64,000 nt of DNA from an uncultured Rhizobium sp. (GTDB taxonomy: Bacteria > Bacteroidota > Bacteroidia > NS11-12g > UBA955): positions 864 through 64,863 of the forward strand of contig CAYPYX010000010.1 in assembly GCA_964415065.1 (NCBI GenBank), written 5' to 3'. A program made the translations under genes and the position numbers. Below the pieces are notes generated by a model, which saw nothing but the letters and a program-made list of their open reading frames with translations, searched no databases and had not been told where the DNA came from. Positions 1,924 to 39,158 of the stretch are shown piece after piece; within the stretch, counting starts at the first letter, position 1, and the number at the start of each line of letters is the position of its first letter.

Positions 1924-1927
1924 ATTT

Positions 1928-2497: not shown

Positions 2498-2503
2498 TTA
2501 TTA

Positions 2504-2861: not shown

Positions 2862-2894
2862 ATAGTTGACGTTTAAATAGCATAGCATCTCGAA

Positions 2895-3260: not shown

Positions 3261-3470
3261 TTTGAGTGTCAGAAATATGAAAACATTAATAACAAATGAA
3301 TTAGAGCTTAAAAGTTAACAAAATATGTGCAACAAATCACTTTGAGTATAAAGCATGAACATCAAAGGGTTTAGAATATCAAAAAAGTATAAAAATGAGA
3401 TACAAGCTCCAACAGCTTAAATTATTAGTTATATTTAGGTGTTATATCAGCCGTATACTTTCACTTCCAC

Positions 3471-23938: not shown

Positions 23939-23941
23939 GGT

Positions 23942-26248
23942 TTATCCTTTTTTTGTTGCCCTACCGAATTGCTTTCCGTATAACATAGATTCAACATCTT
24001 TGACCCACTTGATTTTTTTGCCTCGATGTCGGATTTTGGATTTTTTCTGAATAAGGTAATTGACGGAGTTAATATCAAAATCAGCGGTGAAATGAGCTTG
24101 ACCGTATTCTGGTTTCTTTTGAAACACTGCAATATTTAAATCGTTGTTTTCTAGTGTATTTTGATATAGGTTCAAATCCGATTGGTCTTTGCTGACAAAA
24201 GCAATTGCTGAATTTCGAATGGTATTTTTCAGTGCACGAAAGGCACTTCGTTCACCACAGGAAATGGCCTTATCATGGATGTTGGTGAATTCATTGTGAT
24301 GAATGTCCATATCGCTACCGGAGCCATCAACTCCGTCGTTGCCTATTTCTTCGAACCGATTATTGCGGACAACACCATTCGAAAAATCTGAGTCAAAGGC
24401 ATCGCTTAACACATCATGAAAATAGGAATTTTCAATTATAAAGTTTTTGCAGTCAAAAATGTTGAGTATATCATCTCCCAAGCGATTGTTAGAAAACTCA
24501 CAATAGTTGATACGAACAATTTTGCTACGATGAATGGTCAGACCTGCAGGCGTGTTGTGAATACCGTTCGATAAACTGGAAAATCCCTCAAATTGGGTAT
24601 GAGTAAGATTGCAAATTTCTGGAGATTGGAAAAATAGCGATGCGCGGGCTTCATCATTTACACTAAATTTAATTGGAGAACCAGCTGTGCCCATCGATTC
24701 CAAATTTCCCCAAACGTACAATACGGAGTTTTTACCTGTAAACCGGACCTGAGTTCCAGGTTGAATTTTTAACGTTGTGTTTTGGGGGATGTTTACAACG
24801 CCATTGATGATTTTATTTCCGCTCCAGATGATGGTGTTAGGTGTAGGGTTAGGAGTTTCATTTAAAGCGAATGAAAATTTTTGAATCGCTGTATTTGAGG
24901 CTGTATTTGGCGCATTGAATAACTCACAACGATGTGATAATTGAGATTTGACTTCATTGAATTCACTCAATTGATTTATCGACATTCCTGTAAATGCGGT
25001 TTTAAATTGTCCGTTTTCTATTTTTTCATTGAGAGATTTGCTGACTATCAATACATATTTATCCAGTAAATCAAATGTATTTTTATCGTGCTTTATGAGC
25101 CATTCAAAATAATTAGAAACAAAATTTGGCTGGCTATGTGAAATACTGTCTCTAAAAAATTGAATATGGTATTTGTAATGTTCAAATCGCTTTTGACGAG
25201 TAAAGTTTCGAGAATCTATAGTGGCAGACAATCGATTATCAGGACCTACTTCACGCAATAACGGTTCAAATGTGTGATTTACTGGATTGTAATACCAATG
25301 TAAGTTAATGTCCACCAAATGATGCCAAGATTTCATAACCACACCAATCGCGAATACCCCTAAGAATTTAGTTTTATCAATTTTTGGGAAGAGTTCTTCG
25401 TGGTCTTTGTTGAATAGTCGAGAAATATACTTCCGGATATTTTCAGTTTTTACAGAATCGTCGAGCTCAACATTAAATTCCAGGTCGATATTCTTTTCTT
25501 CCAAACCCGGTAAATGTTTAAGGGGGCCAGCAAAACCTTTTTCGAAAATGACTGATTCTCTGCGTTGATTACGTTCTATTAAATATTTACCTAAATCATC
25601 CTCGCGCAATAAATACATGGGTTTTTGTTTGCGAAATTGAACAATAACTGGAGTATAACGAATTTGAATGCCCTGGAAAAGCTCGTGGTATAATTCATTC
25701 GCTAGAGGATCAACAATGTAATTTCGAGTACCTGGAACTAGTAGGTTAATGGCTTTTTCTCCGAAAAGTCGATTGTCGCCATTTAGTTTCAATTTCATAG
25801 AAAAGTAGTCGAACCCCGAATGATGGTCGCTCCACATACCCGTCATGGAAATTTTGGATTTCATCCATTTTGGATTTTCCGCATTTACATATTTAACCCG
25901 ACAACTGTACTTGTCTTTTTTCTCTGTCCACGGAGATCCGTCTAAATTATGATAATTTCTAAACTGTCGATTCCATTCTGCTGTCATTTCTGAAAAACGA
26001 TTGGGTGGCATGTCGATTTTCAGAGTATCTGGAACCGGTTGAGAGGTCACATTGGAATTATTTGCGAAATAATCTTTCAATAGCCAACCTTTATGGATTA
26101 AATCGTGGTCAAATCCTTTTTGTATAAGTTGAGTAATGTGCAGGTTGTAACGACTCACTGATAATACCTCAAGCAATAAAAATCCCCCGAGAATCAATAT
26201 GATGATCAATCTGTTGGACGACTTTTGAATGTTTTTGCGGAAATTCAT
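23942..26248 (-). CDS. Membrane-anchored CotH-like protein fused to right-handed beta-helix repeats
   Basis: N-terminal TM LIIILILGGFLLLEVL. The central region (NLHWYYNPVNHTFEPLLREV) resembles CotH. The C-terminal third has NNRFEEIGNDGVDGSGSDMDIHHNEFTNIHDKAIS beta-helix repeats. The CotH call leans partly on the known CotH/VTC/DUF4956 gene context. Confidence 0.6.
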   Translation of the reverse strand: MNFRKNIQKSSNRLIIILILGGFLLLEVLSVSRYNLHITQLIQKGFDHDLIHKGWLLKDYFANNSNVTSQPVPDTLKIDMPPNRFSEMTAEWNRQFRNYHNLDGSPWTEKKDKYSCRVKYVNAENPKWMKSKISMTGMWSDHHSGFDYFSMKLKLNGDNRLFGEKAINLLVPGTRNYIVDPLANELYHELFQGIQIRYTPVIVQFRKQKPMYLLREDDLGKYLIERNQRRESVIFEKGFAGPLKHLPGLEEKNIDLEFNVELDDSVKTENIRKYISRLFNKDHEELFPKIDKTKFLGVFAIGVVMKSWHHLVDINLHWYYNPVNHTFEPLLREVGPDNRLSATIDSRNFTRQKRFEHYKYHIQFFRDSISHSQPNFVSNYFEWLIKHDKNTFDLLDKYVLIVSKSLNEKIENGQFKTAFTGMSINQLSEFNEVKSQLSHRCELFNAPNTASNTAIQKFSFALNETPNPTPNTIIWSGNKIINGVVNIPQNTTLKIQPGTQVRFTGKNSVLYVWGNLESMGTAGSPIKFSVNDEARASLFFQSPEICNLTHTQFEGFSSLSNGIHNTPAGLTIHRSKIVRINYCEFSNNRLGDDILNIFDCKNFIIENSYFHDVLSDAFDSDFSNGVVRNNRFEEIGNDGVDGSGSDMDIHHNEFTNIHDKAISCGERSAFRALKNTIRNSAIAFVSKDQSDLNLYQNTLENNDLNIAVFQKKPEYGQAHFTADFDINSVNYLIQKKSKIRHRGKKIKWVKDVESMLYGKQFGRATKKG

Positions 26249-26365
26249 CGTGTTTTAATGAGGAGATGAGTGGTACTTTACAGGTGGATAAAAAGTTAGT
26301 GGTGTAGGTTTACACACTCCAATCTAGTTGTATGGGAGGCTAATTTAACCAACCGAAAAACTAGG

Positions 26366-27040
26366 TTATGCGTTGGATGTAGAGATTTTAACTAGTGGGT
26401 TTTGTACGTTGAAGTCGGTCAAAATCTGATTTACTTGAGAAACAGTTTGTAAACTAGCGTCTTGTAATTTGAATAACAAACGGTAATTGGAGTGATTTGA
26501 ATTTTCGTAGTTAGAAAGCGCAGTTACTGCAGGGATTTCTGAGATTTTTGACATGCAAGATTCTGCTTTTGTTGATTCTGACTCCGTGAACGTAATTAAT
26601 AAAAAGTCGGAATGCAATCGCTCCGATTTTACCGCACCTTTAAATCTAAAGATGGACACCAATGTAAACACAGCAACACATAAAGTCGAAATGATGAATT
26701 GTTCAGCGGCCAAAGAAATAGCTATAGCGGTTAGTCCTAAAAGGAAAATGATTTGCTCTGGTTCTTTAATCGCTGTACGAAAGCGAATGATTGATAATGC
26801 ACCAACCAATCCTAAACTTAGTGCTAATGATGATTTTATGGTAGTAATGATCAGATATATGGATAAAGAAAAGAACAGAAAGTTAGATGCGAACAGTGTT
26901 CTGTTGGACGTAACCAAAGCGTAATTTTTGAATAAAAGTTGAAAAACTACGGTGTAAATAATAAGTAACACAAGTCCCAGGCTGAAATTGGCATAATTAA
27001 CGGAACTGAGTAATTGAGTATTTTGAAATAACTGATCCAT
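26366..27040 (-). CDS. DUF4956-like membrane protein
   Basis: Four or five TM helices with the hallmark LSIIRFRTAIKEPEQIIF, then a soluble ~85-aa tail. Confidence 0.75.
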   Translation of the reverse strand: MDQLFQNTQLLSSVNYANFSLGLVLLIIYTVVFQLLFKNYALVTSNRTLFASNFLFFSLSIYLIITTIKSSLALSLGLVGALSIIRFRTAIKEPEQIIFLLGLTAIAISLAAEQFIISTLCVAVFTLVSIFRFKGAVKSERLHSDFLLITFTESESTKAESCMSKISEIPAVTALSNYENSNHSNYRLLFKLQDASLQTVSQVNQILTDFNVQNPLVKISTSNA

Positions 27041-27094
27041 GACGTTTTAAGTCGTCAAAAATAATTAAATCATCATTATAAATTAATATTATGA

Positions 27095-27979
27095 TTAAAT
27101 TCCTGTGTTTTTGATTTTTTGAAAATACAATTTTTTAATGATAGCATCGGCCAATCCGACTTTTGGAACCAGTATATCATTGCAATTGGACCACTTCATT
27201 ACACTTAGGTAAATGTGCATGGCAGGAACAATTACATTGGCTCTATCTTCTCGAATATTGAATTGGTGTATGCGTTCTTCAATGGGTAAGGGAGCCATAT
27301 TTTGGTGTAATTGTTTAATGAAATTGCGACTCAAAGGCTTTCCTTCTTTTTGTTTTGAAATGGAGAATATTTTATTTATGTTTCCCCCGCTTCCCACCAA
27401 TTGTAAATTGGCAGATTGTGCTACGTGAGTTTTAACAAATGATTTCATTGCTTGCCAAGCATCATCGTAATTTAATTGATTCAAAATACGAATAGTGCCT
27501 ACGTTGAATGATTGTTTAGCCACTATGGCTGTGTCGTTAAAAAGGGTTAATTCCGTACTTCCTCCACCAACATCGATAAATAATTGCTGACCGGTATTAA
27601 TGGTATGATTTTCCAGCAGGATTCCTGCTTCTTCGTCTCCAGAAATAATATCGATTTCGATCTTCGTTTTCTTGCGTATGGTTTTTTTGATTTTGGAGCC
27701 ATTTTTGGCATCCCTCATTGCTGAAGTAGCGCAGGCTCGGTAATGTTCCACTTTGTAAATTTCCATCAGATTTTTAAAGACCTGCATGGTTTGGATGAAC
27801 ATTTTAATCTTTTCGGGGGATATGAAACCGGTTTCGAAGACATCAAAACCCAATTGTAATGGAATTCTGACCAGATTGAGTTTGGTGAAATCGGTATCGG
27901 TTCCAGTGCCGTATGGATCTGCCTTCATGATGAGTAGGCGTGCGGCATTGGAACCAATATCGATACTTGCGAGAATCAC
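27095..27979 (-). CDS. ppx: Ppx/GppA-family exopolyphosphatase (short form)
   Basis: N-terminal ASIDIGSNAARLLI, and DVGGGSTEL and GSGGN phosphate-binding loops of the ASKHA fold. Confidence 0.87.
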   Translation of the reverse strand: MILASIDIGSNAARLLIMKADPYGTGTDTDFTKLNLVRIPLQLGFDVFETGFISPEKIKMFIQTMQVFKNLMEIYKVEHYRACATSAMRDAKNGSKIKKTIRKKTKIEIDIISGDEEAGILLENHTINTGQQLFIDVGGGSTELTLFNDTAIVAKQSFNVGTIRILNQLNYDDAWQAMKSFVKTHVAQSANLQLVGSGGNINKIFSISKQKEGKPLSRNFIKQLHQNMAPLPIEERIHQFNIREDRANVIVPAMHIYLSVMKWSNCNDILVPKVGLADAIIKKLYFQKIKNTGI

Positions 27980-28945: not shown

Positions 28946-29293
28946 TTGCCTTATTGGATGCTTAAAAGTCTGAGAAAATATCGCTTCTTATTAGCCATTT
29001 TAGGGCTTTTCTCAGTGTCTTTTGGGTACGTAAATATCTCTAAAAATCACGTTTCAAATCCCATAGTTCAAATCGAAGAAGTAGAGTTCGAAGAGGCGAA
29101 TTTAGAGGGTTTGGCGGATATTGGGTTCGAGTTTTTTACTTCGCTTTTCACCGTACTTATCGTAGCCGGTTTTAAGGCTCCAATAAACACCTTGTTAAAG
29201 CGACTGAAATTTGAATTCATCAATCAAATAGCTCAGTCCATTCGTGCCATTGGACATTTCCTGCGTTTTCATCAAATCAAGTTAGGATTTTAA
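28946..29293 (+). CDS. Small hypothetical membrane protein
   Basis: ORF whose likely ATG is at 28958 (MLKSLRKYRFLLAILGLF). A good hairpin terminator follows, which supports transcription. Confidence 0.5.
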   Translation: MPYWMLKSLRKYRFLLAILGLFSVSFGYVNISKNHVSNPIVQIEEVEFEEANLEGLADIGFEFFTSLFTVLIVAGFKAPINTLLKRLKFEFINQIAQSIRAIGHFLRFHQIKLGF

Positions 29294-29315: not shown

Positions 29316-29352
29316 TTCCAGATTTTCAAAACTAATCTGGAAGTTTCTTTTT
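29316..29352 (+). terminator. Rho-independent terminator
   Basis: 9-bp stem ttccagatt / aatctggaa with loop ttcaaaact, followed by gtttcttttt. Confidence 0.65.
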
Positions 29353-29404
29353 AATCATCAGCTCTCCTTAAAGGAGGGTCAAACTAGGACCTAGTTGTGA
29401 ATCT

Positions 29405-31063
29405 ATGGTCTCAGTATTTTGCTCAAAATACTATTTGATTCAAATGAAAAACGAAAAACAAATTAAACATATATCGCTCCCCGCGGAAGGTTTCGCTGGG
29501 TTGAAGCAAAATTTTAGTTCCGATTTTATGTCGGGATTTTTTATATTCTTGTTGGCTTTGCCACTGAGTTTAGGAATTTCAAAAGCAAGTGAGTTTCCTG
29601 CAATTATGGGACTGATTACAGCCATGATTGGTGGAGTAGTGGTGTCATGGATTGCTGGATCGCGATTAACAATTAAGGGTCCAGCTGCAGGGTTAATTGT
29701 AATTGTAGCGGGTGCAGTAGCCGAATTCGGTAAAGGAGATGCCTTGTTGGGTTGGAAATTGGCATTGGGCGCCATTTTTGTTGCAAGCATCATTCAAATA
29801 TTATTCGGTTTAATTCGCTTAGGATCGTTGGTGGATTTTTTCCCACTGAGTGCAATTCACGGAATGTTGGCTGCCATCGGAATTATTATTATCAGTAAAC
29901 AGGCGCATCAAATATTTGGAGTTACCCCCAAAGACAGTTTAGGGCATGTTTTGTCTGAACCCATAGATTTAATTCGGGCCATCCCTAAAAGTATGATTCT
30001 CGCAGATCACAATTCCCTGATAATTGGTGTAGTAAGCTTGCTTATTGTGTTTTTATGGCCATTGGTGAAGCATCCCATACTTAAAAAAGTGCCAAGTCCA
30101 ATTTTGGTTTTAGGGGTTGCTATTCCACTATCCAAAGGTATACATTTGGATCCTAAGTACTTGATTCATTTCGGAGATGATTTAATTCATACATTGAAAA
30201 TTAACATTCAATTTGGAGGAATGACAGAGACTGGAACCTTTATTAAATATGTACTCATGTTCGCACTGGTGGGAAGTTTGGAAAGTTTATTAACGGTAAA
30301 AGCAGTAGATGCGATGGATCCATTTCGCAGAAAGTCCAATGCTAATAAAGATTTGATAGCCGTTGGTATCGGTAATATGATTAGTTCAATTTTGGGTGGT
30401 TTGCCTATGATTTCTGAAGTAGCTCGAAGCAGTGCAAACGTTAATAATGGTGCAAAAACGCGATTTGCTAACTTTTGGCATGGGGCACTGATGTTATTGT
30501 TTTTGCTATTTGATCTTGAATTCTCTGATTTGATACCTCAAGGAGCATTGGCTGCATTGCTTATTGGAGTAGGCGTGAAATTAGCTAGTCCGAAAGAGTT
30601 TGGTCGCATGGCAAAAATAGGTCCTGAGCAGTTGGCTGTATTTATCACTACCATTGTTGTAACTCTCTTGACGGATTTGCTCTTAGGTATTTTTGCAGGA
30701 ATTGTGATAAAAATTATTCTTCAAACCATTTTAGGTGCACCGTTGAAATCCGCATTTAAATTGGATTATGAACAAAGGGGTAATGTATTATATGTAAAAA
30801 AAGCAGCTGTATTTTCCAATTGGTTGAAATTAAATAAAATAATTGCAAGTTTTAATCAAAAGGATATCTATAAGTTGGATTTTTCACAATGCAGAATAAT
30901 TGATCATACGGTACAGGAAAATCTACACCATTTGATTCGAGAGTTTGAAAATTCGGGTGGATTGTTGGAAGTAACTGGAGTGGATGATATGAAATACACT
31001 TCCAAGTCTAAACACCATATGTCTACACGGTATCGTTCTCGTAGAACCGTTGTTTCACAGTAA
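29405..31063 (+). CDS. SulP-family inorganic anion transporter with a C-terminal STAS domain (BicA-like candidate)
   Basis: SulP core (FLLALPLSLGISKASEFPAIMGLITAMIGGVV..., ESLLTVKAVD) and a STAS-like tail. The likely ATG is at 29444 (MKNEKQ). Confidence 0.92.
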   Translation: MVSVFCSKYYLIQMKNEKQIKHISLPAEGFAGLKQNFSSDFMSGFFIFLLALPLSLGISKASEFPAIMGLITAMIGGVVVSWIAGSRLTIKGPAAGLIVIVAGAVAEFGKGDALLGWKLALGAIFVASIIQILFGLIRLGSLVDFFPLSAIHGMLAAIGIIIISKQAHQIFGVTPKDSLGHVLSEPIDLIRAIPKSMILADHNSLIIGVVSLLIVFLWPLVKHPILKKVPSPILVLGVAIPLSKGIHLDPKYLIHFGDDLIHTLKINIQFGGMTETGTFIKYVLMFALVGSLESLLTVKAVDAMDPFRRKSNANKDLIAVGIGNMISSILGGLPMISEVARSSANVNNGAKTRFANFWHGALMLLFLLFDLEFSDLIPQGALAALLIGVGVKLASPKEFGRMAKIGPEQLAVFITTIVVTLLTDLLLGIFAGIVIKIILQTILGAPLKSAFKLDYEQRGNVLYVKKAAVFSNWLKLNKIIASFNQKDIYKLDFSQCRIIDHTVQENLHHLIREFENSGGLLEVTGVDDMKYTSKSKHHMSTRYRSRRTVVSQ

Positions 31064-31078
31064 AATCGTTCGGGATTT

Positions 31079-33670
31079 ATGAAACAAGAAAATGAAATTG
31101 AGAACAAATACTTGTCTCAAATCAGACATTTATTGCCCAGTCAGGCACCATTGAAAGATTTTGTGCATCATAATACACTTCATCACTTTCAGGAATTACC
31201 GTTTTTAAACGCTATCGAGACGTATTTTCAAGAGCTAGGTATCAAAAATATTTACGATTTAAAAACGTATTTAGACTGGTTTAATCAAGGTGTAATTTCT
31301 AGAGATGCTTTGACTTTTGTCCTTTCTAGAGATAAAAACAAGAAACACTACACTGTAGACCAGTGGGTAGATTATACTCGAAATCAAATTGAAATTTACG
31401 AGAATCAGTTGCAATGGCACCCTAAAGTGAAAACCTTGAAGGGTTTGTGGAAGCGTAAATTGAACTTGGATGTTGATGCGGTTGTGTATCCAGTTTTATT
31501 TCGTTGGATTTCCAATTATATGGATCAAGGAATTTCAGAATTGGAAAACGAACTGTGGAGCGAGGGCTTGTGGGCGGATTTCAAAACTATTAATAAACAG
31601 AGTTTCGTATCTGTATTAAAGCATCCCCATTCTAAATGGATACTGGAGGAAAGCCAGAGTCCAGAATCAGCTTTGAATACACTTTTGAATGAGTTAGTGG
31701 GAGATGAGTCGCTGGGATTTGAATATTTGAAAGAGCAACAACTCATGCATCCAGGTTGGTCAGGGTTGGTTTCAGTGGTAGAACAGAATCCTCGACATTT
31801 GATTTTGCCTCGAAAAGTTCGATTGGTTGAGTTTATAGCTATTGAATTATTATTGGAATTTGACTTTTTGGTGTCTCACGTTAAAAAGGGAACTTCGTTC
31901 AAATTGTGTGATTTATTGGATACCGAATTTGTTCAACTTTCAACAGGTCCAAAGCCGGATTTTTCTACAGAAAATATTTGGCAATTAGCTTTCGAATGGA
32001 CCTACTATTCAACCGTAATTAATCAAATTCAAACCAGCACTTTAAGTAGTTCTCAGAAAGAGAATTCCGGTTCATTTGCAACATATCAAGCGCTTTTTTG
32101 CATCGATGATCGCGAGGGAAGTTTGCGAAGTCATCTAGAGGAAATATCCGATAATTCAGTTCAGACTTTTGGAATACCGGGATTTTTTGGGATTGAATTT
32201 TATTACCAAGGATTGGGAATGGTACACGCTTCCAAAAGTTGTCCTGCGCCAGTTACTCCTCACGTATTGATTAAGGAGCAACATCCAAATTCACATCGAT
32301 TGAACAACCAAAATCGGTTGAAACAGAATGATTCGAGCCAGGTACCAATAAACGAGCAAAATCAGAATGCTTCAAGCACAAGGAATACGTCCCCCGAAAA
32401 AATAAAAAATGACCCAATTCTTCATCGAAATACGCATAAATCGATTCACGGAATAATGGGTTCCATAGGGCTCGGATTTGCAGCAGGATATAGATTGGTA
32501 AAGCAAATGGTTCAACCACAAATGAATCATTATGTTGCGAGTTCAGCCTCTTTTATGAATCCCGAGTCAAAATTGACGTTGTTGCACATGGGCGTTTTTG
32601 AAAATGGACTGCAAGTCGGATTTACACTTGAGGAATTGCTGGTTAGGGCGGAGAATATGCTTCGAAGTATAGATTTGACACAAAATTTTGCTTCTTTGGT
32701 GTATTTGATTGGTCACGGAGCCAGTTCAATTAACAATCCTCATTATGCGGCGTACGATTGCGGTGCTTGTAGTGGTAGACCAGGTTCAGTTAATGCCAGG
32801 CTGATGGCGATGGTGTTGAATTTGCCTGAAATTAGATTGGGTTTAAAGCAAAAAGGTATAGAGATACCTGAAACTACTCGTTTCATCGGTGCTCTACACG
32901 ATACCACACGCGATGAAATTCAGTTCTACGATTTACATCGAATGCCATCGGATCGGTTGTATGAACACGGAAAATTTCAAGATTGGGTTGAAAATGCACT
33001 GCTGTATAATTCCGCTGAAAGGTCTCTTGCCTTTACTAATATGAACAGTGTTTTTCATAAATCAGCACTGAAAAATAAGCAGGGTGTTTCCAAAGAGACA
33101 TTGAAACAAATCCATCAAGAGGTTTTAAAACGAAGTCTTCGATTGTTTGAAACTCGTCCAGAATACAATCATGCAACGAATGCCTTGTGTGTTATTGGAA
33201 ATCGCAGTTTAACGCAACATGTAGATTTAGATCGCAGGGCTTTTCTGCAGTCGTATAATCCATTTTCGGATCAAGATGGTTCTATTCTACATTCCATCAT
33301 GAAGGCCGCTGTTCCCGTTTGTGGCGGAATTAATTTGGAGTATTACTTTTCAAAAGTAAGTCCCGATCAAATGGGAGCAGGTAGTAAGCTTCCGCACAAC
33401 GTAAATGGACTTTTAGGCGTATCAAATGGTGTTGAAGGCGATTTGAGAACGGGTTTGCCAGCTCAAATGGTGGAAATTCATGATGCCATACGATTGTTAA
33501 TGGTTATTCAACAATCACCAGAAATACTGGAACAAATTTTAAATCAAGATTCTGTTTTGAAAGAGTGGTTTGAAAATGAATGGATGCATTTACTCGTAAT
33601 TCATCCAATCTCGGGAGCAAGTTATTATTATTCTAACGGATCTTTTGTTAACTATTTAATAGAAAAATAG
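31079..33670 (+). CDS. dabA: DabA (DUF2309) inorganic-carbon transporter subunit
   Basis: N-terminal LKDFVHHNTLHHF. Putative Zn ligands are FCIDDRE (Cys341 at 32099..32101 and Asp343) and GHGASSINNPHYAAYDCGACSG (His546 at 32714 and Cys561 at 32759). Motif GLLGVSNGVEGDLRTGLP is present. Its stop is 1 nt from the DabB start. Confidence 0.92.
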   Translation: MKQENEIENKYLSQIRHLLPSQAPLKDFVHHNTLHHFQELPFLNAIETYFQELGIKNIYDLKTYLDWFNQGVISRDALTFVLSRDKNKKHYTVDQWVDYTRNQIEIYENQLQWHPKVKTLKGLWKRKLNLDVDAVVYPVLFRWISNYMDQGISELENELWSEGLWADFKTINKQSFVSVLKHPHSKWILEESQSPESALNTLLNELVGDESLGFEYLKEQQLMHPGWSGLVSVVEQNPRHLILPRKVRLVEFIAIELLLEFDFLVSHVKKGTSFKLCDLLDTEFVQLSTGPKPDFSTENIWQLAFEWTYYSTVINQIQTSTLSSSQKENSGSFATYQALFCIDDREGSLRSHLEEISDNSVQTFGIPGFFGIEFYYQGLGMVHASKSCPAPVTPHVLIKEQHPNSHRLNNQNRLKQNDSSQVPINEQNQNASSTRNTSPEKIKNDPILHRNTHKSIHGIMGSIGLGFAAGYRLVKQMVQPQMNHYVASSASFMNPESKLTLLHMGVFENGLQVGFTLEELLVRAENMLRSIDLTQNFASLVYLIGHGASSINNPHYAAYDCGACSGRPGSVNARLMAMVLNLPEIRLGLKQKGIEIPETTRFIGALHDTTRDEIQFYDLHRMPSDRLYEHGKFQDWVENALLYNSAERSLAFTNMNSVFHKSALKNKQGVSKETLKQIHQEVLKRSLRLFETRPEYNHATNALCVIGNRSLTQHVDLDRRAFLQSYNPFSDQDGSILHSIMKAAVPVCGGINLEYYFSKVSPDQMGAGSKLPHNVNGLLGVSNGVEGDLRTGLPAQMVEIHDAIRLLMVIQQSPEILEQILNQDSVLKEWFENEWMHLLVIHPISGASYYYSNGSFVNYLIEK

Positions 33671-33671
33671 A

Positions 33672-35543
33672 ATGGGAATACTAAATAATTTTATTTTAAT
33701 TCCCATTTTGGGATGGGTGATAAGTTTGTTGTGGCAGAGAAAAAGTGAAAAGTTAATTTCCAATACAGCATTGCTAACATTGTTGTTGCAGTTGTTGATT
33801 TTTCCTGTGTTGATTTATACCTGGTGGTTAACTTCAGAAAAATGGATAAGTCTCTTCGATTTTACGCTATACAATTCAGGCGATTATTCATTTAACTTCA
33901 GTTTGTATTTCGATAAAATATCGGCAGTTTTCTCTTTAGTGGGAATACTTTTGAGCTTAATAGTGGTATTCTATACTTCCAAGTATTTACATGGAGAACC
34001 GGGGTATAAACGCTTTTTTAACACCATTCAGCTGTTTTTTGTGGGATATAATTTCGTCATCTTTGGAGGAAATTACGAAACGGTTTTTATAGGTTGGGAA
34101 ATTCTTGGAATTAGTTCATTTTTATTGATTGCTTTTTATCGTGAACGTTATCTTCCGGTTAAAAACGCCGTAAAAGTATTCTTTATTTATCGGATTGGGG
34201 ATGTAGGGTTTATTTTAGCCATGTGGCTTAGTCATCATGCTTGGCATAGCAACATCAATTTTGCCCATTTGAATCATGTAGATTTTGTGCGAGATCATTT
34301 ACAGGAAAGCGCAGGGGTTGGAGTTGCAGTTGGCTTGTTATTCTTTTTGGTAGCGATGGGTAAAAGTGCGTTGTTTCCATTTTCGAGTTGGCTTCCACGA
34401 GCAATGGAAGGGCCAACGCCGTCTTCGGCAATTTTCTACGGTTCTTTGTCTGTGCATTTAGGAGCTTTTTTGATGCTACGTACTTTGCCTATTGTTTTGC
34501 AAGAACCAATGGTTCAAGCTTTTATGATTATGGTTGGAGCAATTACTTCGTTAGTTGGACATTATACAGCAAAGTATCAGTCCACCATTAAATCGCAAGT
34601 TGCTTATGGTTCTTTATCCCAAATTGGTTTGATTTTTATTGAGATTGCATTGGGTTGGGTGGATTTGGCGTTGCTCCATTTTGTTGGAAATGCTTTGTTG
34701 AGAACCTACCAATTGTTAGTGAGCCCTTCATCAGTTGTCTATTTAATTCGAAAACAACATCGTTCCAGTCTTCCCGAAAAGCAGCACTCTCAATTTCTGA
34801 ATCGGTGGAATTACACAATGTATGTTTTGAGTCTTAAAGAATTCTATATGGAGCAAATTCAATATGGATTACTCTGGTATCCATTTAAACAATGCGGTCG
34901 ATGGTTGAATAAAGTCGATAAACGATATTTTGTGAGTGTAGGTGTAGTGTTGATGGGGTTGTTTAGTGTGGATTTCTTTGGACTTACTGAGTATTCTCCT
35001 GATTGGTGGTTGTCAATAAATCAACACTTATCTCTGGTTTTAGCGATATTTGCATTGTCTTTGGTGCTATTTGCATTTGGCAACTATAAAAATTCTCTTT
35101 TTTCTTGGATATCAATTTCGTTGAGCCATTTGTTCATTGCATTGAGCGTACTCGTAAAGTCTAAAGGATTTTTAGGGGATGTGGAAATTTACTTAAGTGG
35201 AATTTTTATAGCCTCAATTATGGGAATAATCGTATTGAGATACATTCAAAAACAGCATAATATTCGGTTAAATCACCACTGGGGATTATTTCAATTTTTT
35301 CCCAAGTTATCGGTTTTCTTCTTGGTGATTTCACTGATGATGACTGGTTTTCCAATAACTCCAACTTTCCTAGGGGAAGATCTAATGTTTACCCATTTGC
35401 AAACGAATGAGCCTTTGTTGGCTTCAATCATTGCACTCACATTAATAATCGACGGATTGGTAATTGTTCGTATATATTCTAGGTTGTTTTTTGTAATTAC
35501 CCGTGATGAAAACAACCGAAATAAATTTTATAAAAATGCTTAG
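33672..35543 (+). CDS. dabB: DabB, NuoL/MnhA-like proton-conducting membrane subunit
   Basis: Proton_antipo_M features WEILGISSFLLIAFY, SALFPFSSWLPRAMEGPTPSSAIFYGSLSVHLGAFL and VAYGSLSQIGLIF. Tightly coupled to dabA. Confidence 0.9.
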   Translation: MGILNNFILIPILGWVISLLWQRKSEKLISNTALLTLLLQLLIFPVLIYTWWLTSEKWISLFDFTLYNSGDYSFNFSLYFDKISAVFSLVGILLSLIVVFYTSKYLHGEPGYKRFFNTIQLFFVGYNFVIFGGNYETVFIGWEILGISSFLLIAFYRERYLPVKNAVKVFFIYRIGDVGFILAMWLSHHAWHSNINFAHLNHVDFVRDHLQESAGVGVAVGLLFFLVAMGKSALFPFSSWLPRAMEGPTPSSAIFYGSLSVHLGAFLMLRTLPIVLQEPMVQAFMIMVGAITSLVGHYTAKYQSTIKSQVAYGSLSQIGLIFIEIALGWVDLALLHFVGNALLRTYQLLVSPSSVVYLIRKQHRSSLPEKQHSQFLNRWNYTMYVLSLKEFYMEQIQYGLLWYPFKQCGRWLNKVDKRYFVSVGVVLMGLFSVDFFGLTEYSPDWWLSINQHLSLVLAIFALSLVLFAFGNYKNSLFSWISISLSHLFIALSVLVKSKGFLGDVEIYLSGIFIASIMGIIVLRYIQKQHNIRLNHHWGLFQFFPKLSVFFLVISLMMTGFPITPTFLGEDLMFTHLQTNEPLLASIIALTLIIDGLVIVRIYSRLFFVITRDENNRNKFYKNA

Positions 35544-37011
35544 TAAAAGAACCATATTCCATTTAATCCTGATTGCCTTTTTAGGGGTCTTTGCCGAAAA
35601 TTTGAATGCAGAAACTCGAGTTTCCAACATATCTCCTGCTAATTCAAAGTCACCCTATCCAACGTTGAATTTTACATTTTTGAATCAAACTTGGTTGCGC
35701 TTTTCTCAAAATAATGAAGGAACACTTCGTCTGGGAGAATCGGCCTTGAACACTTTAGACATTGGGTTGAGAAGAACACGTTTCCAGTTGTTCGGAAATG
35801 TACATCCTCGGGTTTTTTATTATTTGCAAGTGGGACAAAATAATTTCAATTCCATGTATAACATTGGAAGTAATCGTAAAAATGCTGTTTTTATTCATGA
35901 CGCAATTACAGAGTACCAAGTTACCCAAACCAATGCACTGAAAATAGGTGGTGGATTGGGAATTGCCAACGGTTTGTCGCGCTTTTCTCAGCCGTCTATA
36001 GGTACGATTGCAACCATGGATGTCCCCGTTTTTGCCCAAGCTACCGTAGATCAAATCGATCAATTTTCCCGAAAATTGAGTGTGTACGCTCGTGGTCAAT
36101 TGGGTAAATTTGATTACCGTTTTGTTCTCAGCGATCCTTTTCCTATTAGCAGTAATGGTTCAACCTTACCTTCAATTTCTAAAAATGCTCAGTTCAGTCC
36201 CCTAAAACACCAAAAACAACTTCAAACCTACTTGATGTATCAGTTTTTTGATCAGGAGGGACATACAACGCCCTATATGACTGGTAATTATTTGGGAACG
36301 AAGAAAGTGTGGAACATCGCTTTTGGGGCGATTTATCAACCCGATGCAATGTATCGCTTGGGGAACTTTGGAGACACAATTTTTGAGGATATGAAGCTAT
36401 TTTGTGTGGAATCATTTATGGACATACCCATGAATAATCAGTCAGCATTACATGCATATTTGGGGTATTTTAATTTAAATTATGGTTCGAATTATTTGAG
36501 AATGAATGGGATTATGAACCCTGCAAATTCGTCGAACTTAGTTGGGTTGACGAAGGATGTGGGGCCTCAATATGGAAATAGTTTGCCTATGTTTGGTACG
36601 GGACAATCCATCTATTCGGAAGTACATTATTTACTTCCCCAAAGAAGCAAAAGGATAGAAGTTTCGAATGTGGTTTCTTCTTCAAAAGATGTGCCTGCCA
36701 CAGCGGGAAATAAAGATGTATCTTCTTCAACAAATGCAGGAGCTGCGGCAAATTCAGCAACTGCTTCACATGCAATTGTCCCAACGCGATATGGGGTTTA
36801 TGCATCCGTTAATTGGTCAAAATACGATCGGTTGAATTCCGTTTCAACTCTTGAAAGTCATGTAGGATTAAATTGTTTTATACAAGGCCACCAAGGAAAG
36901 TTAAGTTTGGATGTAGCCAATCGTCCACAAGTTTTGGTTTTCAATAATTCAATTGATCGAGGTTCCAATTTATGGCAAGCCGTTCTGCAATACCAGATTT
37001 TTTTGAATTAA
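35503..37011 (+). CDS. Putative outer-membrane porin
   Basis: The likely start is ATG 35536 (MLSKRTIFHLILIAFLGVFAENLNA signal peptide). Alternating beta-strand composition throughout and a C-terminal ...VLQYQIFLN. The porin role is inferred, not matched to a family. Confidence 0.65.
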   Translation: MMKTTEINFIKMLSKRTIFHLILIAFLGVFAENLNAETRVSNISPANSKSPYPTLNFTFLNQTWLRFSQNNEGTLRLGESALNTLDIGLRRTRFQLFGNVHPRVFYYLQVGQNNFNSMYNIGSNRKNAVFIHDAITEYQVTQTNALKIGGGLGIANGLSRFSQPSIGTIATMDVPVFAQATVDQIDQFSRKLSVYARGQLGKFDYRFVLSDPFPISSNGSTLPSISKNAQFSPLKHQKQLQTYLMYQFFDQEGHTTPYMTGNYLGTKKVWNIAFGAIYQPDAMYRLGNFGDTIFEDMKLFCVESFMDIPMNNQSALHAYLGYFNLNYGSNYLRMNGIMNPANSSNLVGLTKDVGPQYGNSLPMFGTGQSIYSEVHYLLPQRSKRIEVSNVVSSSKDVPATAGNKDVSSSTNAGAAANSATASHAIVPTRYGVYASVNWSKYDRLNSVSTLESHVGLNCFIQGHQGKLSLDVANRPQVLVFNNSIDRGSNLWQAVLQYQIFLN

Positions 37012-37036
37012 ATTGATTAAAACAATAAATGTGTTA

Positions 37037-37067
37037 ATGTGAACTCTCGTTATTTGAGAGTTCACAT
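37037..37067. terminator. Hairpin between convergent genes (putative bidirectional terminator)
   Basis: Perfect 12-bp stem atgtgaactctc / gagagttcacat with loop gttattt. Confidence 0.55.
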
Positions 37068-37085
37068 TTGACACCAATCATTTTA

Positions 37086-39158
37086 TTAGTGATATTCCTT
37101 GTTTTGAAGGTATTTGTATATTTCTAATTGTGATCTAAACTCTACGGATTCTATAGATTCCGGAGTGAAGTATTCATTATTTTGAATGTTATTTAGAACA
37201 CGTGCCTTAACATTTTCTTTAAGTTGAATCTCCATTATGTCGATTAGCTCTTGTGAAAATGTTTTTGAAACGATTGGACAAGTCACCTCAACACGATGAT
37301 CGAGATTTCGAACCATCCAATCAGCCGAAGATATGTAAACGATGGGATCGTTATTGTTATTGAAAATAATTACTCGGGCATGTTCTAAATATTCGTCAAC
37401 AATGCTGATGCCTCGAATGTCTTTCTTAAATGCTTTTTGATGCGTCGTGGCCGTGCAAATTCCGCGAACAACCATATCGACTTGCACTCCACTTCGAGCC
37501 GCTTTATAGAGAGATTCAATTAGAGTTGGGTCAACCAATGAATTTAATTTTACTAAAATTCTTCGTTGGCTCTTTCTGCGTTTTATTTCTTTTTCGATTT
37601 GTTGAATGAAATGATTTCGGGTATTAAAAGGGCTTGTAATTAGTGTTTTACACGATTTTATTTTATCGAGGGATGGGTGTTCTGATTCTAAGCAATCGAA
37701 GATCTTATTAATATCCTGAATTATGGACGATTTGGAGGTCATCAACATGTGGTCGCCGTACAATTGTGCAGTACCTTCATGAAAATTACCGGTAGAAATA
37801 AATGCATATTGTAAGGTTTTATTGAATTCACGTTTTTTAATCACGCATAATTTGGCATGAACTTTCATGTTGGGTACTCCAACGTAAACTTTAATACCTT
37901 CTTCTTCTAATATACTCTTCCATTTTAAATTGGCTTCTTCATCAAAACGTGCTTTTAATTCAATAACAACTGATACCGTTTTGCCATTGCGAACGGCATT
38001 AAGAAGTGCATTAATTACTTTGGAATTCTTAGCCAGACGGTATACGGTAATTCGAATGCTTTGAACAAACGGATCAATGGCAGCTTCCCTCAATAAATCG
38101 ATCACAGAATCAAAACTGTGATAAGGGAAATGCAGCATAACGTCCCGATTTTGAATCACATCCATAATTCTGCAGGGTTGTTTTAATAATGGATGCACAA
38201 AAGGTTTAGGACGGTATTTTATATCGTGAAATACCTCTTTGGGGAAATCCATAAACGCTTTGAAATTATGAATTCTTCCTCCCGCAATGAGGTCAGCTTT
38301 TTTATCGAGATTCAGTCTGCGCGTAAGGTAATCCAATAATTGGGGGTCGATTCGTTTGTCGTATACGAAACGCGTGGCTTTCCCTTTACTACGTTTCTTT
38401 AAATTCTTTTCTAATTCGGTAATAATGTTTGAATTGAAGCCGTTGTCTAAGTCCATTTCAGCATCTCGAGTCAATTTAATTACGTGACTTTTAAAGCGAT
38501 CAAATCCAAACGGAGCAAACAAGAATTTTAAATTATAGCGAATAACATCCTCCAACATAATGATATGTGTTTCATTTTTGGGGGATGGAAGTATGATGAA
38601 TCGAGGAATATGTTGCTCTGGAACTTCAATGAGTGCATATCGTTGCAACATAGGATTGTTGGTGTTGCCAAGTAAACATGCTAAATAAATTGAACGGTCG
38701 CGCAACATTGGAGCATGTGGCATACTTTCGATCATTAAGGGAACAATTTGGCTACGAACTCGTTCTTCAAAGTAATTCTCAACCCATGTTTTTTGATCTT
38801 TGCTTAATTCTCGTTCATTTTTTAGGTAAATTTTATATTTAGTACCTAATTCTCGGATGATTTGTGCAAACGTTTTGTCGAAAGCACTTTGAAGTTTAAT
38901 GACTTCTTCGTGAATTTGGCTTAAAATGCGTTCTGGATTTTCTTCTAAATGAATTTTAGCAGTTTGTTTGTTGAGCTTAACCATTTTGTTCAGAGTTCCA
39001 ACACGAACGCGGAAAAACTCATCTAAGTTATTGGAGAATATCCCTAAAAAACGCAATCTGTTATACAAGTGAACTTCATTATCCTGCGCCTCTTGCATTA
39101 CTCTCTGGTTAAACGATAACCAACTTATGTCCCGAATGATTTTTTTCACTGCATGCAA
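37086..39158 (-). CDS. ppk: Polyphosphate kinase 1
   Basis: RDISWLSFNQRVMQEA, NRLRFLGIFSNNLDEFFRVRV and two PLD-like HxK motifs (VHAKLCVI; EHARVIIF). 690 aa. Confidence 0.96.
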   Translation of the reverse strand: MHAVKKIIRDISWLSFNQRVMQEAQDNEVHLYNRLRFLGIFSNNLDEFFRVRVGTLNKMVKLNKQTAKIHLEENPERILSQIHEEVIKLQSAFDKTFAQIIRELGTKYKIYLKNERELSKDQKTWVENYFEERVRSQIVPLMIESMPHAPMLRDRSIYLACLLGNTNNPMLQRYALIEVPEQHIPRFIILPSPKNETHIIMLEDVIRYNLKFLFAPFGFDRFKSHVIKLTRDAEMDLDNGFNSNIITELEKNLKKRSKGKATRFVYDKRIDPQLLDYLTRRLNLDKKADLIAGGRIHNFKAFMDFPKEVFHDIKYRPKPFVHPLLKQPCRIMDVIQNRDVMLHFPYHSFDSVIDLLREAAIDPFVQSIRITVYRLAKNSKVINALLNAVRNGKTVSVVIELKARFDEEANLKWKSILEEEGIKVYVGVPNMKVHAKLCVIKKREFNKTLQYAFISTGNFHEGTAQLYGDHMLMTSKSSIIQDINKIFDCLESEHPSLDKIKSCKTLITSPFNTRNHFIQQIEKEIKRRKSQRRILVKLNSLVDPTLIESLYKAARSGVQVDMVVRGICTATTHQKAFKKDIRGISIVDEYLEHARVIIFNNNNDPIVYISSADWMVRNLDHRVEVTCPIVSKTFSQELIDIMEIQLKENVKARVLNNIQNNEYFTPESIESVEFRSQLEIYKYLQNKEYH

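What the first reader, a model, noticed from the sequence alone, without database searches (positions are those of the whole stretch)
29405..37011. SulP - DabA - DabB - porin: a complete envelope-spanning inorganic-carbon uptake cassette in a likely heterotroph
DabA (DUF2309) and DabB (NuoL/MnhA-like) form the energy-coupled carbonic-anhydrase-type DAB pump (Desmarais et al. 2019). This DabA keeps the beta-CA-like ligand pattern: C341-I-D343 in FCIDDRE, and H546 and C561 in GHG...DCGAC, with the His-to-Cys spacing of 15 expected for the family. dabA and dabB are 1 nt apart. A SulP/STAS transporter sits immediately upstream; this is the family of the cyanobacterial bicarbonate transporter BicA. 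A 502-aa porin-like OMP sits immediately downstream. Two different inner-membrane Ci systems plus a dedicated outer-membrane channel in one string is unusual. The gene order (A before B) also differs from the commonly drawn dabB-dabA. DabA carries an N/Q/S-rich low-complexity stretch (about 32280..32440).
Basis: partly seen in the sequence, partly recalled or inferred. Interest (0 to 1): 0.68.

Follow-up and report, generated by a model that had tools for sequence, protein, structure and literature searches.

The report
Bacteroidota bicarbonate uptake gene cluster
A freshwater Bacteroidota bacterium carries a tightly packed string of genes for a SulP anion transporter, a divergent form of the DabAB CO2-trapping pump and an outer-membrane porin, and the same genes recur together, in shuffled order, in many relatives, which points to an undescribed inorganic-carbon supply module in non-photosynthetic bacteria.

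Summary
sulP (29444-31063), dabA (31079-33670), dabB (33672-35543) and a porin gene (35536-37011) lie head to tail with gaps of 15, 1 and -8 nt. DabA matches Pfam DabA at E=1e-201. C341, D343, H546 and C561 align exactly with the zinc-site residues of the solved DAB2 structure (PDB 9rd0).

The 491-aa protein is predicted to be an outer-membrane beta-barrel, distantly related to the OprO/OprP anion porins.

The linkage is not chance. In DabA-anchored loci of at least 15 kb, DabB follows DabA in 34/34, a SulP is nearby in 25/34, this porin in 11/34 and a beta-carbonic anhydrase in 8/34, with the gene order shuffled. A close relative has deleted dabAB, leaving a scar, but keeps sulP-porin under purifying selection. 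Another has swapped the dabA-dabB-porin block by recombination.

New here: Bacteroidota DabAB is a distinct subtype. It has His for the conserved Leu658 and no finger Glu444. Its DabB carries E143/Y256/N340/R344 plus a NuoM-like GFPITPTFxGED motif, and the gene order is A then B.

That SulP carries bicarbonate and that the porin serves it are inferences. DAB in heterotrophs is already known. The cassette is typical of this phylum, not unusual.

The parts
28958..29293 (+). orf111: small predicted membrane protein upstream of sulP; a possible accessory component
   Evidence: It is conserved in the clade, with dN/dS 0.12-0.15 against L002 and L082. It has no Pfam hit. It carries two in-frame stops in L001, the relative that has deleted dabAB. 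No homology could be shown to the small ORFs found upstream of dabA in other lineages (hhalign probability 0.4%).
29444..31063 (+). sulP: SulP/SLC26-family anion transporter (539 aa); candidate bicarbonate transporter
   Evidence: PF00916 at E=4e-60. The closest solved structure is the BicA membrane domain 6ki1. It falls below the BicA and DauA equivalog cut-offs. A SulP lies within 9 kb of dabA in 44/80 DabA-anchored loci, and in 25/34 of those at least 15 kb long.
31079..33670 (+). dabA: cytoplasmic beta-carbonic-anhydrase-like subunit of the DAB complex (863 aa)
   Evidence: PF10070 at E=1e-201. PDB 9rd0_A at E=5e-58 with the single sequence and 7e-84 with a profile.
32099..32113 (+). Codons for C341 (zinc ligand) and the D343-R345 dyad
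   Evidence: These align with C351, D353 and R355 of DabA2. The roles of the residues are taken from PMC13144422.
32714..32761 (+). Codons for H546 to C561 (zinc ligands, spacing 15)
   Evidence: These align with H524 and C539.
32279..32389 (+). N/Q/S-rich low-complexity insertion in DabA (aa 401-437), just before the membrane 'finger'
   Evidence: It is present only in the window, P0122 and P0123, and is hypervariable among them. It is absent from P0124, P0125 and all other Bacteroidota DabA examined.
32441..32518 (+). DabA membrane 'finger' region (aa 455-480, SIHGIMGSIGLGFAAGYRLVKQMVQP); it lacks the Glu444 equivalent
   Evidence: hhalign and MAFFT place G461 at the position of the invariant Glu444. 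The other Bacteroidota sequences have L, I or F at that aligned column.
33170..33172 (+). H698 codon: His where classical DabA has the strictly conserved Leu658
   Evidence: The position is invariant in 26 Bacteroidota sequences.
33672..35543 (+). dabB: NuoL/Mrp-like membrane subunit (623 aa), about 70-170 aa longer than classical DabB
   Evidence: PF00361 and PF00662. E. coli NuoL scores 138 bits and DabB2 scores 103 bits. E143, Y256, N340 and R344 stand in place of I151, H260, H343 and K347 of DabB2.
35346..35381 (+). GFPITPTFLGED motif (aa 559-570) in DabB, a NuoM/ND4 TM12-like broken-helix motif
   Evidence: The C-terminal 155 aa match ND4/NuoM at E=9e-9, with this motif aligned. The motif is absent from all six classical DabB sequences examined.
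35536..37011 (+). Porin: predicted outer-membrane beta-barrel (491 aa), a distant Porin_O_P relative
   Evidence: The AlphaFold2 model is all-beta, with pLDDT 70.6 and pTM 0.71. Foldseek top hits are DcaP, MOMP, PorB, OprO, OprP and OmpF (E from 5e-10 to 1e-8). Porin_O_P scores 15.3 bits here, while relatives pass the 20.9-bit cut-off. The gene overlaps dabB by 8 nt.
37037..37067 (.). Perfect 12-bp hairpin between the convergent porin and ppk1 genes; a likely bidirectional terminator that ends the cassette
   Evidence: ATGTGAACTCTC-7 nt-GAGAGTTCACAT, read from the sequence. This is an inference. The consensus terminator scan did not list it because it has no T-run.
31000..37200 (.). Recombination block: dabA-dabB-porin exchanged as a unit relative to the close relative L002
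   Evidence: Nucleotide identity to L002 is mostly 84-97% in the flanks and 52-79% inside the block, with sharp edges. dS in the flanks is 0.26-0.73, but it is saturated inside the block. L002 DabA and DabB are closer to L082 than to the window, although the L002 flanks are closer to the window.

Best explanation
This is a chromosomal inorganic-carbon supply module of a heterotrophic freshwater Bacteroidota bacterium. It is built from two separable parts.

Part 1 is an anion route. The OprO/OprP-like outer-membrane porin lets bicarbonate into the periplasm, and the SulP transporter carries it across the inner membrane.

Part 2 is DabAB. CO2 that diffuses into the cell is hydrated at the DabA zinc site. 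Hydration is coupled to cation flow through DabB, so bicarbonate is trapped in the cytoplasm.

Together they would keep cytoplasmic bicarbonate high enough for bicarbonate-dependent carboxylases when external CO2 is low.

The four genes are probably co-transcribed. The dabAB part is dispensable and is exchanged or lost between close relatives.

What is shown: gene identities, conserved zinc-site residues, the predicted barrel fold, recurrent linkage, purifying selection, and the deletion and recombination variants.

What is inferred: the substrate of SulP and of the porin, co-transcription, the coupling ion, and the physiological role.
For: Gene identities.

The zinc ligands, the Asp-Arg dyad and the H585, D590 and R653 equivalents are conserved.

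The genes are tightly packed, with gaps of 15, 1 and -8 nt.

Linkage from the DabA side. Among 80 DabA-anchored loci, DabB is present in 75, SulP in 44, the porin in 16, a cytoplasmic beta-carbonic anhydrase (PF00484) in 10, and a second outer-membrane-type protein (DUF2490) in 7. Among the 34 loci of at least 15 kb the counts are 34, 25, 11, 8 and 3.

Linkage from the porin side. Among 80 porin-anchored loci, the only recurrent partners across lineages are SulP (24), DabB (17) and DabA (15).

Gene order is shuffled between lineages: SulP-A-B-porin, A-B-SulP-porin, A-B-porin-SulP, and porin-SulP divergent from A-B. Selection therefore acts on linkage, not on inherited order.

SulP and the porin are directly adjacent on the same strand in 22 of the 39 loci that have both.

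Natural deletion. L001 keeps an 87-nt dabB scar but has intact sulP and porin genes, with dN/dS of 0.025 and 0.054.

dabA, dabB and the porin gene are under purifying selection: dN/dS is 0.045-0.07 for dabB and the porin, and dN is 0.24 with saturated dS for dabA.

Some members of the porin family pass the Pfam cut-off for the anion-specific Porin_O_P family.
Against: - No experiment on any member of this subtype was found.
- SulP substrates are diverse. This SulP scores far below the BicA equivalog cut-off and has Glu where BicA has Asp258.
- Two thirds of the porin family members are not next to SulP or DAB, so the porin may be a general porin.
- This DabAB differs from the only characterised DAB at residues whose mutation abolished DAB2 function (H260, H343, K347 and Glu444; PMC13144422). 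Its activity and coupling therefore cannot be assumed.
- The consensus promoter and terminator scans gave no information.
- In L002 dabA carries a frameshift, so the pump is clearly dispensable.
Confidence: 0.6

Rival explanations
1. SulP is not a bicarbonate importer. Instead it is an anion/bicarbonate exchanger or a bicarbonate exporter that works with DabAB. DabAB would make cytoplasmic bicarbonate plus a proton. SulP would then use or export the bicarbonate, either to drive uptake of another anion that enters through the porin (such as sulfate) or to retain protons for pH homeostasis in alkaline water.
For: SLC26/SulP members include anion/bicarbonate exchangers; chloride anion exchanger and pendrin structures are among the hits. 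A cytoplasmic beta-carbonic anhydrase next to dabA in 10 loci fits bicarbonate/CO2 interconversion for purposes other than accumulation. DabB belongs to the Mrp/NuoL cation-translocating family.
Against: sulP-porin is kept under purifying selection after dabAB was deleted in L001, so SulP does not depend on DabAB. No second-substrate gene, for example one for sulfate assimilation, recurs in the neighbourhoods.
Confidence: 0.17
2. The porin, and perhaps SulP, belongs to the surrounding polyphosphate and phosphate neighbourhood (VTC, DUF4956, ppx, ppk1) and serves phosphate uptake. On this view its position next to dabAB is incidental.
For: The porin family is a distant branch of the phosphate-selective Porin_O_P family. 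In the window the cassette sits between ppx and ppk1, with VTC and DUF4956 genes nearby. ppk1 is also near DAB or SulP in L041, L100, L114 and L143.
Against: ppk1 is near the porin in only 3 of 80 porin-anchored loci and near dabA in 5 of 80 DabA-anchored loci. SulP is the partner in 24 and 44. The porin gene overlaps dabB by 8 nt. dabA-dabB-porin recombine as one block whose edges exclude ppk1.
Confidence: 0.08
3. The Bacteroidota-type DabAB is not an inorganic-carbon pump at all. It would be a DabA/NuoL-like complex with a different activity, for example an ungated carbonic anhydrase anchored to a cation channel, or a cation transporter regulated by CO2.
For: There are correlated substitutions at mechanistically tested sites: His for Leu658, no Glu444, and Y, N and R for H260, H343 and K347. 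E143 is restored and a TM12-like motif is retained. The protein is more similar to NuoL than to DabB2.
Against: The zinc site and the Asp-Arg dyad are invariant. The full-length Pfam DabA match is very strong. Pairing of dabA with a PF00361 gene is strict (75/80). Linkage to SulP and beta-carbonic anhydrase points to inorganic carbon.
Confidence: 0.1

Closest known systems
DAB2 (DabA2/DabB2) of Halothiobacillus neapolitanus: an energy-coupled vectorial carbonic anhydrase (10.1101/476713; structure PDB 9rd0, PMC13144422)
   Same: - Two-gene unit of a PF10070 protein with a PF00361 membrane protein.
- Cys-His-Cys zinc site with an Asp-Arg dyad.
- H585, D590 and R653 equivalents are present.
- DabB keeps the R182/D185 and K235 ion pair, K310 and H339.
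   Different: - Gene order is A then B, not B then A.
- DabA has H698 for Leu658, E346 for Ser356, P367 for Ala376, and no Glu444 in the finger.
- DabB is 620-626 aa, against 455-551 aa.
- DabB has E143 for Ile151, Y256 for His260, N340 for His343 and R344 for Lys347, and keeps a NuoM-like GFPITPTFxGED motif.
- There is no LysR neighbour. Instead the unit is linked to SulP, a porin and beta-carbonic anhydrase.
MpsAB of Staphylococcus aureus (a DAB homologue proposed to be a Na+/bicarbonate system in a heterotroph)
   Same: A DAB-type system in a non-autotroph. It is thought to supply bicarbonate in place of carbonic anhydrase (as summarised in PMC13144422).
   Different: MpsAB was not compared at the sequence level here. 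It comes from a Gram-positive host with no outer membrane, so it has no porin partner. From my own knowledge its gene order is mpsA (the B-like gene) then mpsB.
BicA and other SulP-type bicarbonate transporters of cyanobacteria and sulfur-oxidising Proteobacteria (PMC10880623)
   Same: A SulP family membrane domain. The BicA membrane domain is the best solved match (6ki1). The Thr262 equivalent is conserved.
   Different: The protein reaches only 118 bits against the BicA equivalog cut-off of 880. It has Glu in place of BicA Asp258. No Pfam STAS match is found. The host is a heterotroph.
OprP/OprO (Pfam Porin_O_P): anion-specific outer-membrane porins of Pseudomonas
   Same: A predicted beta-barrel porin fold. 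OprO and OprP are among the top Foldseek hits. Family members pass the Porin_O_P cut-off.
   Different: Sequence similarity is marginal: 15.3 bits for the window protein and about 10% identity in the structural alignments. The genomic partners are SulP and DAB, not pst or pho genes. Selectivity is unknown.
Cyanobacterial NDH-1(3/4) CupA/CupB CO2-uptake complexes
   Same: The concept is the same: CO2 hydration coupled to a NuoL/NdhF-type membrane subunit to trap bicarbonate.
   Different: The catalytic subunit is unrelated, and the membrane subunit is part of a large NDH-1 complex. The NdhF3 model scores only 107 bits against a cut-off of 589.

Membership tests
DAB (DabA/DabB) inorganic-carbon pump | DabA: full-length match to Pfam PF10070 | tested here: met
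   E=1.2e-201, 672 bits, profile positions 2-747 of 747.
DAB (DabA/DabB) inorganic-carbon pump | Adjacent PF00361 (NuoL/Mrp-like) membrane partner gene | tested here: met
   dabB starts 1 nt after dabA and has PF00361 and PF00662. The pairing is seen in 75 of 80 related loci.
DAB (DabA/DabB) inorganic-carbon pump | Zinc site Cys351/His524/Cys539 plus the Asp353-Arg355 dyad | tested here: met
   C341, H546, C561, D343 and R345 align exactly.
DAB (DabA/DabB) inorganic-carbon pump | Leu658 in place of the beta-carbonic-anhydrase Gln/His (reported as strictly conserved in 150 DabA2 homologues) | tested here: not met
   The window has H698, which is invariant in 26 Bacteroidota DabA sequences.
DAB (DabA/DabB) inorganic-carbon pump | Glu444 at the tip of the DabA membrane finger (essential in DAB2) | tested here: not met
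   The aligned column holds G in the window and L, I or F in other Bacteroidota sequences, and no acidic residue lies in the finger. Glu is invariant in 25 proteobacterial sequences and in 5 plasmid or archaeal sequences. The alignment in this segment is less certain than elsewhere.
DAB (DabA/DabB) inorganic-carbon pump | DabB proton-path residues S256, H260, K310, S316, H339, H343 and K347, and a non-acidic residue at position 151 | tested here: not met
   S252, K307 and H336 are kept. Y256, N340 and R344 replace H260, H343 and K347. G313 replaces S316 (S in most relatives). E143 replaces I151.
DAB (DabA/DabB) inorganic-carbon pump | Energy-coupled inorganic-carbon accumulation; rescue of carbonic-anhydrase-free E. 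coli | not testable with these tools
   This needs an experiment.
SulP/SLC26 anion transporters | Sulfate_transp membrane domain (PF00916) | tested here: met
   E=4e-60, profile positions 1-379 of 380.
SulP/SLC26 anion transporters | C-terminal STAS domain (PF01740) | tested here: inconclusive
   There is no Pfam STAS hit at E<=10. The NCBIfam DauA model aligns to residue 526. The L013 homologue has a STAS hit.
BicA-type bicarbonate transporter | Reaches the NCBIfam BicA equivalog score | tested here: not met
   117.8 bits against a cut-off of 880.
Porin_O_P (OprO/OprP) anion porins | Pfam PF07396 at the gathering score | tested here: not met
   The window protein scores 15.3 bits against 20.9. 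The relatives P0021 (22.8) and P0096 (25.6) pass.
Outer-membrane beta-barrel porins (general) | Signal peptide, all-beta barrel fold and C-terminal beta-signal | tested here: met
   The N-terminus is hydrophobic and ends in LNA. The model has about 16-18 strands and its best PDB matches are porins. The family ends in QYQIFF, but the window clade ends in IFLN.

The most novel reading that the evidence does not exclude
Bacteroidota may possess a previously undescribed three-layer bicarbonate acquisition system in which an OprP-like outer-membrane porin is a bicarbonate channel working with a SulP importer. Their DabAB would be a mechanistically distinct second type of vectorial carbonic anhydrase. 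In this type the membrane-embedded coupling charge has moved from the DabA finger (Glu444) to a retained NuoM-like TM12 Glu-Asp in DabB, and the active site regains the canonical beta-carbonic-anhydrase His.
Probability: 0.3. Interest if true: 0.72.

Novelty: new variant of a known kind. Interest (0 to 1): 0.58.

Why it matters
DAB pumps are being engineered into crops and industrial microbes, and their coupling mechanism has only just been proposed from one structure. A natural second subtype that changes exactly the residues proposed to gate catalysis and relay protons gives a ready-made test of that model.

How bicarbonate crosses the outer membrane of Gram-negative bacteria is largely ignored; a 2024 review of inorganic-carbon toolkits does not mention porins at all. 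A porin family that is repeatedly linked to bicarbonate-type transporters offers a concrete candidate.

The cluster also suggests that abundant freshwater and soil Bacteroidota invest in active inorganic-carbon supply for heterotrophic carboxylation, which bears on dark carbon fixation budgets.

Tried and rejected
1. An exact look-up of the window DabA found nothing. The near-identical P0121 did locate the source contig JACCEA010360643.1, which belongs to a metagenome WGS set.

2. Sigma-70 promoter and intrinsic-terminator scans gave no excess over shuffled sequence, as expected for Bacteroidota. A single TAnnTTTG motif lies at 28941, but such a motif is expected by chance about 12% of the time, so it is not used as evidence.

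3. I tested whether orf111 is homologous to the 124-130-aa ORFs upstream of dabA in L100, L143 and others. hhalign gave a probability of 0.4%, so this was rejected.

4. I looked for a carbonic-anhydrase domain in the roughly 200-aa C-terminal extension of the long SulP proteins of L013 and L053. There was no Pfam hit.

5. A polyphosphate link for the porin is weak across loci.

6. Rapid decay or pseudogenisation as the reason for the low DabA identity to close relatives was rejected. dN/dS is low, and the pattern is a sharp-edged recombination block.

7. Several literature searches for DAB with SulP and a porin in Bacteroidota returned nothing relevant, and short terms matched unrelated words. 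Absence from this library does not prove that nothing has been published.

8. Rfam found only a tRNA in the window, and no riboswitch near the cassette.


Full report
**What is in the window**

Four + strand ORFs fill 29405-37011. Pfam gives:
- Sulfate_transp for the first (E=5e-60);
- DabA (PF10070) for the second (E=1e-201, the whole profile);
- Proton_antipo_M and Proton_antipo_N for the third;
- nothing for the fourth.

NCBIfam places the third protein nearest NuoL. It gives the fourth only a weak hit to the porin ExtI.

Gene callers on a near-identical public contig use ATG 29444 for sulP (539 aa) and ATG 35536 for the porin (491 aa). The spacings are then 15 nt, 1 nt and an 8-nt overlap. 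A perfect 12-bp hairpin (37037-37067) lies between the porin gene and the convergent ppk1.

**Zinc site**

The PDB now holds the cryo-EM structure of H. neapolitanus DAB2 (9rd0; PMC13144422). In that structure zinc is bound by Cys351, His524, Cys539 and a water molecule. The water is held by an Asp353-Arg355 dyad.

The window protein aligns C341, H546, C561, D343 and R345 to these residues. The ligand assignment is therefore correct. The one refinement is that the Asp is second-shell rather than a ligand.

**The fourth protein**

Its relatives number at least 1889 and come from Bacteroidota, for example Niastella, Longitalea and Microscillaceae. Locus titles from the genome scan add Aquirufa, Saprospiraceae and Haliscomenobacter.

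Most members end in QYQIFF. A few pass the Pfam cut-off for Porin_O_P, while the window protein scores 15.3 bits against a cut-off of 20.9.

An AlphaFold2 model built on 26 sequences is all-beta (pLDDT 70.6, pTM 0.71). Its best PDB matches are outer-membrane porins, including OprO and OprP. The refuting condition that it is not an outer-membrane barrel is not met, within the limits of prediction.

**Is the linkage more than chance?**

I anchored on the porin in one genome per species and on DabA in metagenome contigs.

Counts for the two sets of loci:

| Neighbour | 80 porin-anchored loci | 80 DabA-anchored loci | 34 DabA-anchored loci of at least 15 kb |
|---|---|---|---|
| SulP | 24 | 44 | 25 |
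| DabA | 15 | anchor | anchor |
| DabB | 17 | 75 | 34 |
| Porin | anchor | 16 | 11 |
| Cytoplasmic beta-carbonic anhydrase | 0 | 10 | 8 |
| DUF2490 (signal-peptide-bearing, outer-membrane type) | 1 | 7 | 3 |

- In the porin-anchored set, all other neighbours are lineage-specific and unrelated, such as GH3, aconitase and a Na/Ca exchanger.
- In the DabA-anchored set, DabB always lies downstream of DabA.
- With a few SulP genes per genome of about 4 Mb, a SulP would lie within 9 kb of a given gene in roughly 1-2% of cases. This is my rough estimate, not a computed value.
- Orders differ between lineages: SulP-A-B-porin; A-B-SulP-porin; A-B-porin-SulP; porin-SulP divergent from A-B.
- SulP and the porin are directly adjacent on one strand in 22 of the 39 loci that have both.

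Shuffled but persistent linkage, plus a canonical carbonic anhydrase as a further partner, is the main argument that the module deals with inorganic carbon.

**Natural variants in the window's own clade**

The source is a metagenome contig. A 272-kb contig is 99% identical to it.

*L002: block exchange.*
- Against L002, nucleotide identity is mostly 84-97% in both flanks. It drops to 52-79% exactly over dabA-dabB-porin (31000-37200).
- dS is 0.26-0.73 in the flanks and saturated inside the block. dN/dS stays at 0.045-0.07.
- L002 DabA and DabB are closer to those of L082 (79% and 90%) than to the window's (69.5% and 79%). Its flanks are nevertheless closer to the window.
- I read this as replacement of the block by homologous recombination.

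*L001: deletion of dabAB.*
- L001 has Ppk1 97% identical to the window's, and its sulP and porin genes are 150 nt apart.
- That gap retains an 87-nt remnant of the dabB 3' end with stop codons. dabAB was therefore deleted there.
- sulP and the porin remain under purifying selection (dN/dS 0.025 and 0.054).
- The small upstream orf111 has two in-frame stops.

*Other points.* L002 dabA carries a frameshift, which may be real or an assembly error. The cassette thus consists of a stable sulP-porin pair and a dispensable, exchangeable dabAB.

**A distinct DAB subtype**

I compared 8 Bacteroidota pairs with H. neapolitanus DAB2 and with five plasmid-borne pairs from Halorientalis, Azospirillum, Pantoea, Salinivibrio and Phaeobacter.

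All six non-Bacteroidota loci are B then A, and none has a SulP or porin gene nearby. A LysR gene lies upstream in the five bacterial loci; the Halorientalis locus has an Lrp/AsnC regulator nearby instead.

The alignments give this split:

| Feature | Classical type | Bacteroidota type |
|---|---|---|
| DabA, DAB2 position 356 | Ser | E346 |
| DabA, position 376 | Ala | P367 (Ala in L056) |
| DabA, position 444 (finger) | Glu | no acidic residue in the finger |
| DabA, position 656 | Trp | Tyr or Leu |
| DabA, position 658 | Leu | H698 |
| DabB length | 455-551 aa | 620-626 aa |
| DabB, position 151 | non-acidic | E143 |
| DabB, position 260 | His | Y256 |
| DabB, position 343 | His | N340 |
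| DabB, position 347 | Lys | R344 |
| DabB C-terminal GFPI(T/S)PTFxGED motif | absent | present in 7 of 8 pairs; L013 has GQD |

The C-terminal motif aligns to the TM12 Glu motif of ND4/NuoM and to K399/D400 of NuoL.

The DAB2 paper reports the following:
- Leu658 is strictly conserved in 150 homologues.
- E444A, E444Q, H260A, H343A and K347A abolish or strongly impair function.
- Glu444 of the DabA finger takes the place of NuoL K399/D400.

In the Bacteroidota type the DabB subunit keeps that acidic pair and the finger has none. This fits a relocated coupling charge, but that reading is an inference from alignment only. The finger alignment is the least certain segment.

The window's own sub-clade adds further changes: a hypervariable N/Q/S-rich insertion of about 32 aa before the finger, and loss of a C-terminal tail of about 25 aa.

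**SulP**

The best solved match is the BicA membrane domain (77 bits), only slightly ahead of SLC26A11. The protein is far below the BicA and DauA equivalog cut-offs.

BicA Asp258 aligns with Glu, and Thr262 with Thr. Those residue roles are recalled from the literature, so this is a lead only. Substrate assignment rests on genomic context.

**Context and organism**

The window contains T9SS C-terminal sorting domains, a TonB-dependent receptor, GH92, acetyl-CoA synthetase and meta-cleavage genes. It contains no RuBisCO or carboxysome gene. This fits a heterotrophic Bacteroidota.

The cassette is embedded among polyphosphate genes (VTC, DUF4956, ppx, ppk1). That association is confined to a few lineages.

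**Comparison with the literature**

DabA homologues in heterotrophs and in genomes without RuBisCO were already noted by the discoverers. They suggested a role in supplying bicarbonate to carboxylases.

A 2024 review of inorganic-carbon toolkits covers DAC, SulP and SbtA in autotrophs. It mentions neither porins nor the outer membrane nor Bacteroidota.

I found no description of the SulP-DAB-porin linkage or of the Bacteroidota DAB subtype. My searches were limited.

**Verdict**

The components are known kinds. The recurrent outer-membrane partner and the divergent DabAB subtype are new variants worth experimental follow-up.

Noticed in passing
window 31000-37200 compared with L002: There is a sharp-edged drop in nucleotide identity, from mostly 84-97% to 52-79%, exactly over dabA-dabB-porin. 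dS is saturated inside the block and 0.26-0.73 outside it. The DabA and DabB similarities conflict with those of the flanks. This indicates that the block was replaced by recombination.
   Followed up: yes
L001 9853-10000 (between sulP and the porin gene): An 87-nt remnant of the dabB 3' end, with stop codons, shows that dabAB was deleted in this close relative. sulP and the porin gene stay intact.
   Followed up: yes
window 28958-29293; L001 7762-8082: orf111 is a small ORF with two predicted hydrophobic segments. It is conserved in the clade (dN/dS 0.12-0.15) but has two in-frame stops in L001, the relative that lacks dabAB. It may be an accessory DAB component.
   Followed up: partly
L002 5581-5898 and 5868-8108: dabA is split by a frameshift near codons 82-95. 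This is either a pseudogene or a MAG assembly error.
   Followed up: partly
L121, L124, L125, L126, L136, L140, L142, L153, L161 (for example L124 8345-8986): Cytoplasmic beta-carbonic anhydrase genes (PF00484, no signal peptide) of two subtypes lie close to dabA, and often immediately upstream of it, in other Bacteroidota lineages.
   Followed up: partly
L100, L131, L134, L143, L156 (for example L134 6226-7017): A DUF2490 protein with a signal peptide, likely an outer-membrane protein, follows DabA-DabB-SulP in lineages that lack the 450-aa porin nearby. It may be an alternative outer-membrane partner.
   Followed up: no
window 23222-27979 and 37086-39158: The cassette is flanked by a polyphosphate gene neighbourhood: VTC domain protein, a 768-aa protein with no Pfam hit, DUF4956, exopolyphosphatase and ppk1. 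ppk1 is also near DAB in L041, L100, L114 and L143.
   Followed up: partly
window 29383-29395 and 29316-29342: The palindrome ACTAGGACCTAGT lies about 50 nt upstream of the sulP start. It is partly conserved in L002 and L001. A 9-bp hairpin followed by a T-run lies after orf111. These are a possible operator and an attenuator or terminator.
   Followed up: partly
window 36997-37011 (porin C-terminus): The porins of the window clade end in ...QYQIFLN. The rest of the family ends in the aromatic ...QYQIFF. The window clade also carries a low-complexity loop insertion of about 45 aa (porin aa about 373-413, low pLDDT).
   Followed up: no
window 1414-4475: ABC-3C system components (MC5 and CTD9 domains) and a HipA-like kinase gene lie here. 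They are probably a defence or toxin-antitoxin island.
   Followed up: no
window 16623-17546: A protein with a phage tail collar domain lies next to a 1080-aa PKD-domain protein, in an otherwise chromosomal context.
   Followed up: no
L013 7490-9709; L053 5953-8196: These SulP homologues carry a C-terminal extension of about 200 aa that has no Pfam match.
   Followed up: partly
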